Origin: Candidatus Fervidifonticultor sextus
Lineage (GTDB): Bacteria > Sysuimicrobiota > Sysuimicrobiia > Sysuimicrobiales > Humicultoraceae
Direction: 5' to 3'
Assembly (NCBI GenBank): GCA_031459875.1
Contig: JAVKHQ010000001.1
Coordinates: forward strand, 214,035 to 278,034
DNA: 64,000 nucleotides
Under the pieces are notes generated by a model. It was not told the DNA's origin and did not search any database. It saw only the letters and a program-made list of their open reading frames with translations. Positions 49,569 to 52,094 of the stretch are shown here, one piece after another (the stretch's first letter is position 1; each line of letters starts with the position of its first letter). Made by a program: the position numbers and the translations under genes.

Positions 49569-50801
49569 TCACCGCCGCACCAGGAGCAGGGCCAGGCTGA
49601 GGGCGATCAGCAGCCCTGTCGTCGCCCTGGCGATCCCGTTGGAGGCGGTGCGGTTGGTCCACGGCCCCATCAGACGCCGGTCGTTGACCAGGCGAAGCAT
49701 GATCACCAGCACCGCAGGCAGGAGGATGCCGTTGAGGGCCTGGGAGGCGACCATGATGGCCACCAGGGGCAGGCCGGGCCAGAGCACCACAAGCGCGCCC
49801 CCTCCGAGGATGGCGAAGAACAGGCCGTAGAAGACCGGCGCCTGGGCAGTGGTGCGGTCCAGGCCGGCCTCCCAGCCGAAGGCCTCGCACACCGCGTAGG
49901 CGGTCGACAGGGGAATGATTGCGACCGAGAAGACCGCCGCGTTCAGCAGGCCGATGGCGAAGAGCGCGGAGGCGTAGGCCCCGGCCAGCGGCGCCAGGGC
50001 CCGGGCGGCATCCTCGGCGCGCTCGACGTGGATCCCGTGGGGGAAGAGGGTCGCGGCCGTGGCCACGATGATCGATCCGGCGACCAGCCCGGTGACCAGC
50101 GCGCCCAGGGCCACGTCGATGCGCTCGAACCGCAGGTCATCTGCCGTCAGCCCCTTGTCCACGATGGCGGCCTGGTGGTAGAACTGCATCCACGGAGCGA
50201 TCGTCGTCCCGACGAGCGCGATGACCATGTAGATGTAGCCCGGCTCCCACCTGAAGGCCGGCACCACGGTCGCCTGCAACACCTCTCCCCACTGCGGCCG
50301 GGCCAGGACCGCGGAGACCGCGTACAGCACGTACAGGGCCGAGGCCACGAGAAAGATGCGCTCCACCAGGCGATAGCCGCCGCGCACGACCAGGAGCCCC
50401 ACCGCCACCGCCACGATGGGCACGCCGACCAGCCGGGGGACGCGGAAGATCTCCAGAGCGCCGGCCACGCCGGCGAAGTTACCGATCGTGTTCGCCAGGT
50501 TCGCCAGCAGGAGCACGGCCATGACCCACGCGGTGACGGGGACCCCGAACTGCTCGCGGATCAGGTCCGCCAGCCCCATCCCGGTGACCGCGCCCATGCG
50601 CGCGACCATCTCCTGCACGACGATCAGGGCCACGACGGCCACCGGGATCGTCCACAGGAGGACGTTCCCGAAATCCGCCCCGGCGGTGGCGTAGGTGGCG
50701 ACGCCGTTGGCATCGTTGTCCACGGCCGCGGTGATGATCCCCGGACCGGCCACCGACAGGAAGACCGCCAGGCCCGCCCAGCGCTGCCGAGCCCAGCGCA
50801 C
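49569..50801 (-). CDS. Nramp-family transporter with non-canonical metal-site residues (NRMT-like, possible Mg2+ transporter)
   Basis: 410 aa, 11-12 TM helices, NRAMP-like topology. The TM1 motif is AVDNDANGVATY rather than the canonical DPGN. The TM6 motif is GTTIAPWMQFY rather than AxxMPH, so the metal-binding Met is replaced by Ala. Confidence 0.65.
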   Translation of the reverse strand: MRWARQRWAGLAVFLSVAGPGIITAAVDNDANGVATYATAGADFGNVLLWTIPVAVVALIVVQEMVARMGAVTGMGLADLIREQFGVPVTAWVMAVLLLANLANTIGNFAGVAGALEIFRVPRLVGVPIVAVAVGLLVVRGGYRLVERIFLVASALYVLYAVSAVLARPQWGEVLQATVVPAFRWEPGYIYMVIALVGTTIAPWMQFYHQAAIVDKGLTADDLRFERIDVALGALVTGLVAGSIIVATAATLFPHGIHVERAEDAARALAPLAGAYASALFAIGLLNAAVFSVAIIPLSTAYAVCEAFGWEAGLDRTTAQAPVFYGLFFAILGGGALVVLWPGLPLVAIMVASQALNGILLPAVLVIMLRLVNDRRLMGPWTNRTASNGIARATTGLLIALSLALLLVRR

Positions 50802-50807
50802 GCGCCC

Positions 50808-52094
50808 CTAGCCCCTGTGCAACCGGCGGATGCGGTCGAGCCGCCGGGGCACGCGGCCGCCCAGGCGCTCGGCCAGCAGGTCCACGACGTCATCGACGGT
50901 CACGATCCCCAACAGCCGGTCCTCGGCGTCCACCACTGGCACGGCCAGCAGGTCGTACTTCATCAGGAGCGCCGCGGCGGCTTCGTCGCTCTCGTCGGCG
51001 CGCACGGCGACGATGTCGCGGGAGGCGATGGCGGTCACCGGCGTCTTGGGATCGGCGATCAGCAGGCCGCGCAGCGAGAGCACGCCGACCAGGCGGCCGG
51101 ACGGATCCACGACGTACAGGTAGTAGATCGTCTCGGCGTCCGGGGCCAGTTCCCGGAGGCGGGCGATGGTCTGTTCCGCGGTGTAGGCGTCGGGGACGGC
51201 GATGTAGTTGGGGTTCATGCGGCCGCCGGCCGAGTCCGGCGGGTACTCCAGCAGCCGGGAGACCTCGGCCTTGGCCTCGGGCTCCATCCGGATCATGAGG
51301 TCGGTGGCGGTCTCCTCCGGGAGTTCGCCCAGCACGTCGGCCGCCACGTCGGCCTCCATCTCCTCGAGGATGTCGGAGGCCCGCTCGGCGGGTAGCGAGC
51401 GCAGGATGCTGGCCTGCACCTCGGGCTCGGCGGCTTCGAGCACCTCGGCGGCGTCCTCGTGGCTGAGCGCCGACATAACCTCCACGCGTTCCTCGCGATC
51501 CATCTCCTCGAGGAGTTCGGCCAGGTCGGCCGGATGGATGGCCTCCAGCCGCTCCCGCGAGATGCGCAACTTGAGCGGCGTCACCGGACCGCCCAGCGCG
51601 GCCACGTAGGTCCACGGCAGCGCCTGGTCCGCCAGCGGGCGCCCCAGACGGGCCAGCAGCCAGCGCACCGGCCTCTCGGCGCCCAGGCGACGCAGCAGTC
51701 CGCTGGCGCCGACGTCCACGCCGGTCAGCAGCAGGTCGCCGTTGGTCTGAGAAAGGAACAGGTCGTTGACCTTCACCACCCTCAGCCCGTGGGTGTCCAC
51801 GACCTGCTTATCCAGCAGCGACTCCCGGAGCGTGATCTCGTCGGGCTGGAGCGGACGGGGCCGCAGCCCTGTCCGGTCGGTGTTCAGGCGGATCTCGGGC
51901 TCGAGATCGGCGACCGCCCCCCAGGGGATGAGCGCCACGCGCGGGCGATCAACATCGAGGAGGAGCCCGACGATCCGCGGGCGGGCAGGATGGACCTCGG
52001 CGACCAGGTCGGCCAAGCGGCCCAACAGGAAGCCGCTGGCGTCCCGCACGCGCCTGCCCAGAAGCCGGCTGAAAGGCAGCGAGGTGACATCCAC
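50808..52094 (-). CDS. Soluble MgtE-like regulatory protein (MgtE N-domain plus tandem CBS) lacking the transmembrane pore domain
   Basis: The central acidic helical MgtE_N-like region reads LEAIHPADLAELLEEMDREERVEVMSALSHEDAAEVLEAAEPEVQASILRSLPAERASDILEEME. It is followed by a CBS pair (..IYYLYVVDPSGRLVGVLSLRGLL.. / ..LLAVPVVDAEDRLLGIVTVDDVVDLL). No TM segments are present. Confidence 0.6.
   Translation of the reverse strand: MDVTSLPFSRLLGRRVRDASGFLLGRLADLVAEVHPARPRIVGLLLDVDRPRVALIPWGAVADLEPEIRLNTDRTGLRPRPLQPDEITLRESLLDKQVVDTHGLRVVKVNDLFLSQTNGDLLLTGVDVGASGLLRRLGAERPVRWLLARLGRPLADQALPWTYVAALGGPVTPLKLRISRERLEAIHPADLAELLEEMDREERVEVMSALSHEDAAEVLEAAEPEVQASILRSLPAERASDILEEMEADVAADVLGELPEETATDLMIRMEPEAKAEVSRLLEYPPDSAGGRMNPNYIAVPDAYTAEQTIARLRELAPDAETIYYLYVVDPSGRLVGVLSLRGLLIADPKTPVTAIASRDIVAVRADESDEAAAALLMKYDLLAVPVVDAEDRLLGIVTVDDVVDLLAERLGGRVPRRLDRIRRLHRG

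What the first reader, a model, noticed from the sequence alone, without database searches (positions are those of the whole stretch)
49569..52094. NRMT-like (Nramp-related) transporter with altered metal-site residues, encoded next to a pore-less MgtE-N/CBS protein
The 410-aa Nramp-fold transporter lacks both canonical metal-site motifs. TM1 reads DNDANG instead of DPGN. TM6 reads TIAPW instead of A-x-x-MPH, so the metal-binding Met is replaced by Ala. Loss of the soft Met ligand is characteristic of the Nramp-related Mg2+ transporters (NRMTs) as opposed to Mn2+/Fe2+ Nramps.

The gene immediately upstream encodes a 428-aa soluble protein made of an MgtE-N-like acidic helical domain plus a CBS pair, which is the Mg2+-sensing cytoplasmic module of MgtE. 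It has no membrane pore.

The pairing suggests a split sensor-transporter module for Mg2+ uptake. It sits in a neighbourhood that also holds CorC (CNNM) and a TAXI-TRAP transporter.
Basis: partly seen in the sequence, partly recalled or inferred. Interest (0 to 1): 0.65.

Follow-up and report, generated by a model that had tools for sequence, protein, structure and literature searches.

The report
Known magnesium transporter–sensor gene pair
A gene for an Nramp-related magnesium/manganese transporter sits directly behind a gene for a pore-less copy of the magnesium-sensing part of the MgtE channel; the pairing is real and widely conserved, but it was described in 2014, so this is an ordinary new example of a system whose partner protein still has no tested function.

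Summary
The 410-aa protein belongs to the NRMT clade of the SLC11/Nramp family. Its best solved relative is EleNRMT (E = 8e-114), and it has the full D-x-x-G / T-x-x-A binding-site signature. The 428-aa upstream protein has no membrane segment. It contains the MgtE N domain and CBS pair, and all six Mg4–Mg7 ligands of T. thermophilus MgtE are conserved in it.

The pairing holds in 72 of 80 NRMT loci from many phyla, including archaea. An M-box Mg2+ riboswitch lies upstream of the pair in six of them. The same PRC–MgtE_N–CBS module also occurs fused to MgtE pores and to MgtA-type Mg2+ ATPases.

The pairing is not new. Shin et al. 2014 (PMC4072509) reported it, proposed feedback regulation, and found no effect of co-expressing the partner. 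The CorC and TRAP neighbours come from a housekeeping gene cluster (phoH…cdd–recO) and are not conserved with NRMT.

Verdict: a new member of a known kind, of modest interest. The partner's mechanism remains open.

The parts
52147..52176 (-). Sigma-70-like promoter (TTGACG-18 nt-TATAGT) in the 119-nt gap between cdd and the partner gene
   Evidence: It is the only promoter-like site in 6.3 kb (10 of 12 matches; 0.1 expected from shuffles). Sequence read. It is a consensus match only; function is not shown.
50808..52094 (-). Partner gene: 428-aa soluble PRC-PRC-MgtE_N-CBS-CBS protein (pore-less MgtE cytoplasmic module)
   Evidence: A 100% identical protein is on record from an Armatimonadota MAG.
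51594..52094 (-). Tandem PRC-barrel region (residues 1-167); the second barrel carries a two-helix insertion
51234..51557 (-). MgtE N domain (residues 180-287), acidic helical repeat; carries E217, D249 and D253, equivalent to TtMgtE E59, D91 and D95
   Evidence: Pfam MgtE_N at 1e-26. Alignment to 2YVY. Site list from PMC5882242.
50865..51227 (-). CBS pair (residues 290-410); carries D381, D402 and D405, equivalent to TtMgtE D226, D247 and D250. The ATP-site residues are only partly kept (Y325 and R342 conserved; G343, S358 and L382 not).
50811..50864 (-). Disordered basic C-terminal tail (LGGRVPRRLDRIRRLHRG, 7 Arg) in place of the MgtE plug helix and its Mg2/Mg3 ligands
49569..50801 (-). NRMT-clade SLC11/Nramp transporter, 410 aa; its GTG start lies 6 nt after the partner's stop codon
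50703..50720 (-). TM1 (alpha1) motif DNDANG: D30 is kept and the canonical Asn is replaced by G33
50187..50210 (-). TM6 (alpha6) motif GTTIAPWM: T199 replaces Ala, A202 replaces Met, W204 replaces the first His
50469..50483 (-). Alpha3 GNFAG: N108 sits at the position of EleNRMT E133, the ancestral TM3 Glu. This substitution is specific to the window's clade.

Best explanation
This is a two-gene NrmT module of the kind first described by Shin et al. 2014. It probably has its own promoter, and the two genes are probably translationally coupled.

The downstream gene encodes an NRMT-clade SLC11 transporter. By homology to EleNRMT it imports Mg2+ and/or Mn2+ without proton coupling. This is inferred, not shown.

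The upstream gene encodes a soluble protein built from a tandem PRC-barrel, the MgtE N domain, a CBS pair and a short basic tail.

Most likely mechanism (inferred): the partner is a trans-acting cytoplasmic Mg2+ sensor. [quoted passage not shown] That switch would be passed to the transporter as negative feedback on uptake when cytosolic Mg2+ is sufficient. Contact with the transporter or the membrane would come from the PRC-barrels and/or the basic tail, because the MgtE plug helix is absent.

Shown here: protein identities, motifs, conserved adjacency, conserved Mg2+ ligands, and co-regulation by M-box riboswitches in relatives. Inferred: physical binding, the direction of regulation, and the substrate.
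For: Transporter identity:
- Nramp fold at 3.6e-98.
- EleNRMT E = 8e-114, against 1.6e-30 or weaker for canonical Nramps.
- The D/G/T/A/Q signature is invariant in the 12-sequence alignment and in 80-82 of 82 NRMT ORFs. The roles of these residues are described in PMC8806188.

Partner identity and sensor residues:
- Residues 177-408 match the T. thermophilus MgtE cytosolic domain at E = 2e-54.
- All six Mg4-Mg7 ligands are conserved in the window protein.
- Family-wide, the D95 equivalent is Asp in 66 of 68 partners, D91 in 58 of 68 and D247 in 57 of 68.

Gene linkage:
- 72 of 80 NRMT loci from many bacterial phyla and two archaeal lineages have the partner within 5 kb. It is upstream on the same strand in 68, mostly within 140 nt or overlapping.
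- The flanking genes differ between loci.

Link to Mg2+:
- An M-box lies upstream of the partner-NRMT pair in L023, L036, L049, L056, L070 and L078.
- The same PRC-MgtE_N-CBS module is fused to MgtE pores: the ~600-aa class makes up 21 of the top 150 representatives.
- It is also fused to MgtA-type Mg2+ P-type ATPases. There are seven clusters at 57-60% identity, and the fusion lies next to mgtC.

Prior art: Shin et al. reported the pairing and proposed feedback regulation.
Against: - Transport by CabNRMT in vivo and by EleNRMT in proteoliposomes needs no partner.
- Co-expressing the A. capsulatum partner with its NrmT did not change the rescue of a Mg2+-transport-deficient B. subtilis strain. 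That NrmT behaved mainly as a Mn2+ transporter.
- Terriglobia NRMTs, the nearest available proxies for A. capsulatum, carry the same binding-site signature. Mg2+ specificity therefore cannot be read from the motifs.
- The plug helix that couples sensing to gating in MgtE is missing.
- The MgtE ATP site is only partly conserved: 2 of 5 residues, with F227 replaced by Leu.
- The window has no M-box.
- The window clade replaces the otherwise conserved alpha3 Glu with Asn. The consequence is unknown.
- No evidence of a physical complex could be obtained here.
Confidence: 0.55

Rival explanations
1. The transporter is mainly a Mn2+ importer, as reported for the A. capsulatum NrmT. The partner senses cytosolic Mg2+ or the Mg2+/Mn2+ balance and tunes Mn2+ entry. 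On this reading the pair is a Mn2+ homeostasis module rather than a Mg2+ uptake module.
For: - Shin et al. found that the riboswitch-less A. capsulatum NrmT fully rescued a Mn2+-uptake mutant. It rescued the Mg2+ defect only at millimolar Mg2+.
- EleNRMT transports Mn2+ as well as Mg2+.
- Terriglobia NRMTs share the window's D/G/T/A signature.
- The window pair has no M-box.
Against: - The same sensor module is fused to two dedicated Mg2+ importers, MgtE and MgtA-type ATPases.
- M-box riboswitches control partner-NRMT pairs in six related loci, one of them in the same phylum.
- T224 of EleNRMT, needed for Mg2+ but not for Mn2+ transport, is conserved here as T199.
Confidence: 0.25
2. The partner does not gate the transporter. 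It acts as a cytoplasmic Mg2+ buffer or chaperone that accepts ions from NRMT. Alternatively it signals through its PRC-barrels to other targets and is only co-expressed with NRMT.
For: - Shin et al. offered a chaperone role as an alternative.
- The plug helix is absent.
- PRC-barrels are general protein-docking modules, as in CdpB1/B2, RimM and RC-H.
- The PRC tandem is flexibly tethered: full-length pTM is 0.52 and the linker is disordered.
- Co-expression had no effect on rescue.
Against: - Covalent fusion of the whole module to MgtE pores and MgtA-type ATPases points to action in cis on a transporter.
- The tight, often overlapping gene pairing across phyla suggests stoichiometric co-production.
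- In L026 a PRC-only protein sits directly upstream of NRMT.
Confidence: 0.12
3. The partner is an obligate activating subunit, needed for full or high-affinity activity of this NRMT subclade. It would open the transporter when cytosolic Mg2+ is low rather than closing it when Mg2+ is high.
For: - Pairing is conserved in 90% of loci.
- EleNRMT alone has low apparent affinity; for example, the T224A mutant has a Km above 290 uM for Mn2+.
- The MgtE N domain is dispensable for conduction but controls gating (PMC5529423).
Against: - NRMTs work alone in heterologous hosts and in liposomes.
- Six to seven of 80 NRMT loci have no partner nearby.
- Co-expression gave no improvement.
Confidence: 0.06
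4. The adjacency has no functional meaning. Both genes simply lie in a conserved housekeeping cluster together with CorC.
For: The pair sits inside the phoH-pgpH-...-CNNM-DUF502-cdd-[pair]-recO...glyQ cluster.
Against: The pair stays together in 72 of 80 loci whereas CNNM is within 5 kb in only 5 of 84 and the TRAP genes in at most one. In L001-L004 the flanks are entirely different.
Confidence: 0.02

Closest known systems
EleNRMT (Eggerthella lenta NRMT; PDB 7QIA/7QIC/7QJI/7QJJ; Ramanadane et al. 2022, PMC8806188)
   Same: The SLC11 fold is shared, with 48% identity over the full length. The binding-site residues are identical (D55/G58/T224/A227/Q379 correspond to D30/G33/T199/A202/Q354). The first alpha6b His is Trp in both.
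   Different: The alpha3 Glu (E133) is Asn (N108) in the window clade. The second alpha6b position is His (H209) here and Asn in EleNRMT. The substrate has not been tested here.
NrmT operons with an MgtE-like ancillary gene (C. acetobutylicum Ca_c0685/Ca_c3329 and A. capsulatum; Shin et al. 2014, PMC4072509)
   Same: The two-gene arrangement is the same: a homologue of the MgtE N-terminal cytoplasmic domain next to an NRMT-clade transporter. The same feedback-regulation hypothesis applies.
   Different: The window has no M-box riboswitch. The paper calls the ancillary product a 'small protein' and does not mention PRC-barrels. Here, and in all 68 complete partners examined, it is about 420-460 aa with an N-terminal tandem PRC-barrel.
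MgtE Mg2+ channel cytosolic domain (T. thermophilus, PDB 2YVY/2YVX/2ZY9)
   Same: It has the N domain plus CBS pair (E = 2e-54). Ligands of Mg4 (D91, D247), Mg5 (D226, D250), Mg6 (D95) and Mg7 (E59) are all conserved.
   Different: There is no TM pore domain and no plug helix, so the Mg2 E258 and Mg3 D259 ligands are absent. An extra N-terminal PRC tandem is present. The ATP-site residues D188, N203 and F227 are not conserved.
Canonical Nramp/MntH Mn2+/Fe2+-H+ symporters (DraNramp, ScaDMT, EcoDMT)
   Same: They belong to the same Pfam family (PF01566) and share the LeuT-type fold.
   Different: The DPGN and A-x-x-MPH motifs are absent. Scores fall well below NCBIfam's MntH cut-off (135 against 430 bits).
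PRC-barrel adaptor proteins (archaeal CdpB1/CdpB2, PDB 8QZO/8ONW; RimM; reaction-centre H subunit)
   Different: Sequence identity is only about 20%. Here the barrels are fused to an MgtE sensor module, and no functional link to cell division or ribosome maturation is implied.
PRC-MgtE_N-CBS fused to MgtE pores or MgtA-type P-type ATPases (uncharacterised metagenomic proteins, e.g. P0252, P0394)
   Same: The N-terminal module has the same three parts in the same order.
   Different: In those proteins the module is covalently attached to the transporter. In the window it is a separate polypeptide encoded upstream of an NRMT.

Membership tests
NRMT (Nramp-related Mg2+ transporter) clade of SLC11 | SLC11/Nramp (LeuT-type) fold | tested here: met
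   Pfam PF01566 at 3.6e-98, covering profile positions 1-356 of 357. Multiple hydrophobic TM segments are present.
NRMT (Nramp-related Mg2+ transporter) clade of SLC11 | Alpha1: the binding-site Asp is kept and the canonical Asn is replaced by Gly (D-x-x-G) | tested here: met
   D30 and G33 align with EleNRMT D55 and G58.
NRMT (Nramp-related Mg2+ transporter) clade of SLC11 | Alpha6: Ala is replaced by Thr and Met by Ala (T-x-x-A) | tested here: met
   T199 and A202 align with EleNRMT T224 and A227. GTTIAPWM is identical to the EleNRMT sequence.
NRMT (Nramp-related Mg2+ transporter) clade of SLC11 | Closer in sequence to characterised NRMTs than to canonical Nramps | tested here: met
   EleNRMT scores E = 8e-114. 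The best canonical Nramp (BfraNramp, 10KY) scores 1.6e-30 and DraNramp about 1e-21.
NRMT (Nramp-related Mg2+ transporter) clade of SLC11 | Loss of proton-pathway residues (the two alpha6b His, and polar alpha3/alpha9 residues) | tested here: inconclusive
   The first His is W204, as in EleNRMT. The second position is H209 here, compared with N in EleNRMT and L, Q or I in the other 82 NRMT ORFs. The alpha3 Glu is N108. Alpha9 was not examined.
NRMT (Nramp-related Mg2+ transporter) clade of SLC11 | Transports Mg2+ (uncoupled from H+) | not testable with these tools
   This needs transport assays. Published members differ: CabNRMT and EleNRMT carry Mg2+, while the A. capsulatum NrmT acts mainly on Mn2+.
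Canonical Nramp/MntH (Mn2+/Fe2+-H+ symporter) | DPGN motif on TM1 and A-x-x-MPH motif on TM6 | tested here: not met
   The aligned positions read NDANG and TTIAPW. The NCBIfam MntH model gives 135 bits against a cut-off of 430, and TIGR01197 gives 64 against 272.
MgtE Mg2+ channel | Cytosolic N domain plus CBS pair | tested here: met
   MgtE_N at 1e-26, CBS at 2.2e-15, and 2YVY at E = 2e-54.
MgtE Mg2+ channel | Plug helix and five-helix TM pore domain (PF01769) | tested here: not met
   There is no PF01769 hit. TIGR00400 matches profile positions 22-253 of 450 only and falls below its cut-off (199 against 233 bits). No hydrophobic segment is present. The protein ends 18 residues after the CBS pair.
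NrmT-associated MgtE-like ancillary protein (Shin et al. 2014) | Homologous to the MgtE N-terminal cytoplasmic domain and encoded next to an nrmT gene | tested here: met
   Adjacency is conserved in 72 of 80 loci.
NrmT-associated MgtE-like ancillary protein (Shin et al. 2014) | Operon preceded by an M-box riboswitch (a feature of some members, not a defining one) | tested here: not met
   No M-box is found in the window at gathering score, or at E <= 1 upstream of the pair. It is present in six related loci.
PRC-barrel domain (PF05239) | PRC-barrel fold | tested here: met

The most novel reading that the evidence does not exclude
The PRC-MgtE_N-CBS protein is a portable Mg2+-sensor cassette that regulates three unrelated classes of Mg2+ importer. 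It acts in cis when fused to MgtE pores and to MgtA-type P-type ATPases. It acts in trans, as a detachable subunit, on NRMT carriers. The tandem PRC-barrel and/or the basic tail would replace the plug helix as the coupling element. As far as the searched literature shows, neither the PRC tandem nor the MgtA-type fusions have been described.
Probability: 0.4. Interest if true: 0.55.

Novelty: new member of a known kind. Interest (0 to 1): 0.3.

Why it matters
For this locus, the result mainly improves annotation. The database names 'divalent metal cation transporter' and 'CBS domain-containing protein' hide a recognisable NrmT module.

More broadly, the ancillary protein has had no assigned function since 2014. 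The comparative data gathered here turn 'it may regulate' into specific experiments:
- the partner is present in about 90% of loci;
- it always includes a tandem PRC-barrel;
- the Mg4/Mg6 ligands are conserved;
- the plug helix is lost;
- M-box riboswitches co-regulate the pair in relatives;
- the same module is fused to MgtE pores and MgtA-type ATPases.

If the module proves to be a shared Mg2+ sensor for three importer families, that would be a neat case of modular regulation in prokaryotic magnesium homeostasis. It would still extend known ideas rather than establish a new principle.

Tried and rejected
1. AlphaFold model of the complex.
- An explicit linker fusion aligned with both families gave a misaligned MSA: the NRMT rows were placed on the partner half.
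- The tool also returns no PAE or coordinates, so I abandoned this route.

2. Rosetta-stone fusion of the module with Nramp.
- P0419 (967 aa) carries PRC + MgtE_N + CBS + Nramp.
- Its first 495 residues are 99% identical to P0420, which continues into half an AcrB. Residues 149-529 are 97% identical to P0438, which has a MatE fragment. A transposase gene lies next door.
- I treated these as probable assembly chimeras or IS rearrangements and did not use them as evidence.

3. Functional link to CorC/CNNM and TAXI-TRAP.
- CNNM is within 5 kb of NRMT in 5 of 84 loci, and TRAP components in at most one close relative.
- The window's CNNM belongs to the phoH...cdd-recO housekeeping cluster.
- I rejected this as a conserved association. 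A weak recurrence of DUF502-CNNM near NRMT is recorded under things noticed in passing.

4. Riboswitch upstream of the window pair: none found.

5. ATP sensing like MgtE: only 2 of 5 ATP-contact residues are conserved, and the stacking Phe is Leu in 47 of 68 partners. This reading is not supported.

6. Internal duplication of the two PRC halves: the profile-profile signal is only weak (E = 0.013). The fold evidence was needed instead.

7. The two 884-aa ORFs in the window are unrelated.
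Full report
**Observation.** 50808..52094 (-) encodes 428 aa and 49569..50801 (-) encodes 410 aa. They are separated by TAG-GGGCGC-GTG, a 6-nt spacer, and an AGGGG motif spans the upstream stop codon. The window has about 70% G+C. Both proteins are on record at 100% identity from an Armatimonadota MAG, named only 'CBS domain-containing protein' and 'divalent metal cation transporter'.

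**The transporter.**
- It is a full-length Pfam Nramp domain (3.6e-98) but scores far below NCBIfam's MntH cut-offs.
- Its closest solved relative is EleNRMT (7QIA, E = 8e-114). The best canonical Nramp scores only 1.6e-30.
- In the ungapped alignment, D30/G33/T199/A202/Q354 correspond to EleNRMT D55/G58/T224/A227/Q379. These are the residues that Ramanadane et al. show define the NRMT site, and T224 is needed specifically for Mg2+.
- The signature is invariant in my 12-sequence alignment and present in 80-82 of 82 NRMT ORFs from other genomes.
- Two positions are specific to the window's clade. The otherwise conserved alpha3 Glu (EleNRMT E133) is Asn108. The second alpha6b 'histidine' position is His209, where other NRMTs have L, Q, I or N.

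**The partner.**
- Residues 177-408 match the T. thermophilus MgtE cytosolic domain at E = 2e-54.
- There is no MgtE TM domain, no plug helix and no hydrophobic segment.
- I mapped the published Mg2+ sites (PMC5882242) through that alignment. All six Mg4-Mg7 ligands are conserved: E59, D91, D95, D226, D247 and D250 become E217, D249, D253, D381, D402 and D405.
- The plug-helix ligands E258 and D259 are replaced by a disordered tail rich in Arg.
- Across 68 partners from other genomes the Mg4/Mg6 ligands are the best conserved: the D95 equivalent is Asp in 66 of 68, D91 in 58 of 68 and D247 in 57 of 68.
- The MgtE ATP site (PMC5529423) is only partly kept. Y and R are conserved, while D188 becomes G, N203 becomes S and F227 becomes L.

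**The PRC-barrel tandem.**
These give two weak Pfam PRC-barrel matches that together pass the cut-off.
- An AF2 model (pLDDT 79, pTM 0.73) shows two small barrels, the second carrying a helical insertion.
- In the full-length model the domains are confident but pTM is 0.52 and the linker at 168-178 is disordered. The tandem therefore appears flexibly tethered.

**Is the pairing conserved?** Yes.
- A scan of one genome per species found at least 596 NRMT-encoding stretches. I analysed the best 80, which come from Chloroflexota, Acidobacteriota, Nitrospirota, Desulfobacterota-type lineages, Omnitrophota, Planctomycetota, Elusimicrobiota, Armatimonadota, Bacillota and two archaeal lineages.
- Using HMMs built from the partner family, 72 of 80 loci have an MgtE_N/CBS partner within 5 kb. 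It is upstream on the same strand in 68, and the gap is 140 nt or less in 60 of 69 upstream cases. It is convergent downstream in 4.
- Every complete partner (68 of 68) carries the N-terminal PRC region.
- In two more distant homologues looked up by exact sequence, the two genes overlap by 4 bp and the flanks are unrelated to the window's.

**Prior art.** Shin et al. 2014 (PLoS Genet, PMC4072509) named NrmT. [quoted passage not shown] They speculated that it gives 'cytoplasmic feedback regulation' or chaperone activity. They also found that co-expressing the A. capsulatum partner did not improve rescue. Later SLC11 papers do not discuss the partner. No paper in the library mentions both PRC-barrel and MgtE. 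The core of the finding is therefore already known. The PRC tandem appears not to have been noted.

**Links to Mg2+ found here.**
- M-box riboswitches lie upstream of the partner gene, and so may control the whole pair, in L036, L049, L056, L070, L078 and L023. L023 is from Fimbriimonadaceae, in the same phylum as the window. In L054 an M-box lies directly upstream of a partner-less NRMT. The window itself has none. It has only a sigma-70-like promoter in the 119-nt gap upstream.
- A phmmer search with the PRC region alone found 1,465 cluster representatives. The top 150 fall into three length classes. The ~600-aa class is PRC-MgtE_N-CBS fused to a complete MgtE pore.
- One 1,314-aa hit led to seven clusters, 57-60% identical and drawn from several sources, of PRC-MgtE_N-CBS fused to an MgtA-type Mg2+ P-type ATPase. 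TIGR01524 scores 1,120 bits against a cut-off of 611. The fusion is encoded next to mgtC.
- The module is thus attached to three unrelated Mg2+ importer types, which favours a transporter-regulating Mg2+ sensor.
- An apparent direct fusion to Nramp (P0419) is probably chimeric and I discarded it.

**Neighbourhood.** On the minus strand the order is argH, phoH, pgpH-type 7TM-HD, TRAP/TAXI, CNNM, DUF502, cdd, [pair], recO … glyQ. This is the widespread phoH-ybeY-corC-cdd-era-recO-glyQS housekeeping cluster (my knowledge of B. subtilis and E. coli gene order), with the NrmT pair at the place where era usually lies. CNNM is within 5 kb of NRMT in only 5 of 84 loci and the TRAP genes essentially never are. 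The CorC/TRAP context is therefore lineage synteny, not part of the module.

**Mechanism and confidence.** Identity and conserved pairing are secure (above 0.95). The sensor-gate mechanism is inferred from MgtE and from the fusions. It is weakened by three things: the missing plug helix, the fact that NRMTs work alone, and the negative co-expression test. The substrate may be Mg2+, Mn2+ or both, because Terriglobia relatives of the Mn2+-type A. capsulatum protein share the same signature. Overall confidence in the stated explanation is 0.55.

**Verdict.** This is a new member of a known kind, with interest 0.3.

Noticed in passing
P0374, P0392-P0397; L086:4001-7948 and L087:4001-7948: A family of roughly 1,315-aa proteins has the PRC-MgtE_N-CBS module fused to the N-terminus of an MgtA-type Mg2+ P-type ATPase. 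It is encoded directly downstream of mgtC. There are seven clusters at 57-60% identity from NCBI, JGI, ENA and Logan. I found no description of this in the searched literature.
   Followed up: partly
L010:1685-6248: A Ktedonobacterales locus has three genes in a row: a full MgtE channel with an N-terminal PRC-barrel (613-aa ORF, PF01769 present), then a pore-less PRC-MgtE_N-CBS partner, then NRMT. This suggests the partner arose from a PRC-bearing MgtE by loss of the pore.
   Followed up: partly
L026:3100-6910: In an Elusimicrobia locus the gene directly upstream of NRMT encodes only the tandem PRC-barrel region (192 aa, no MgtE_N/CBS). A CNNM gene lies upstream of it and recO lies downstream of NRMT.
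   Followed up: partly
window 50469-50483 and residue H209 of the transporter: The window's Armatimonadota clade replaces the alpha3 Glu, conserved in 71 of 82 NRMTs (EleNRMT E133), with Asn. It also has His at the second alpha6b position, where the other NRMTs have L, Q, I or N. The functional consequence is unknown.
   Followed up: partly
window 52639-54545; L006, L007, L026, L043, L047: A DUF502 gene paired with a CNNM gene lies within 5 kb of the NrmT pair in the window clade and in Omnitrophota and Planctomycetia loci. In Elusimicrobia only the CNNM gene is nearby. This is a minority of loci (5 of 84) but probably more than chance. recO lies within 5 kb in 9 of 84 loci.
   Followed up: partly
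window 48728-63966: The region is a phoH-pgpH-...-CNNM-DUF502-cdd-[NrmT pair]-recO arrangement with no era gene between cdd and recO. A TAXI-TRAP system (DUF1850, NMT1_3 binding protein, fused DctM) is inserted between pgpH and CNNM.
   Followed up: partly
P0418, P0421-P0423 (749-781 aa): In these proteins the PRC-MgtE_N-CBS module is followed by about 350 residues containing several hydrophobic helices and no Pfam match. This may be a further, unannotated membrane domain regulated by the same module. P0423 comes from a Coriobacteriia MAG on a 131-kb contig.
   Followed up: no
P0419/L085, P0420, P0438: Three metagenomic proteins share a 97-99% identical PRC-MgtE_N-CBS module joined to Nramp, to half an AcrB, or to a MatE fragment. 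A transposase gene lies next to one of them. They are probably assembly chimeras or IS-driven rearrangements.
   Followed up: partly
window 42099-44510 (-): This 803-aa ORF has an HELSH metalloprotease-like motif in its N-terminal half. It also has a C-terminal array of about 48-aa repeats (GPDGAIATNWAVGPWQ.PFPITPPGAG); the DNA tandem repeat is 144 bp x 5.1 at 42140-42875. The only Pfam hit is a sub-threshold choline-binding repeat.
   Followed up: partly
window 38805-42177 (-): Three consecutive long ORFs (291, 439 and 444 aa) have no Pfam match at E <= 1e-4. Whether they are real genes was not checked.
   Followed up: no
window 44993-47647 (-): This is an 884-aa STAND-type regulator (AAA_16 ATPase, MalT-like TPR, LuxR/GerE HTH) downstream of recO. 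It is unrelated to the other 884-aa ORF at 24342-26996, which has SecA-like motifs.
   Followed up: partly
L042, L075, L079, L084 (about 3420-3600, - strand): In Syntrophaceae and Smithella loci, a PyrR-binding-site RNA match lies on the opposite strand just upstream of the partner gene. It presumably belongs to a divergently transcribed pyr operon.
   Followed up: no
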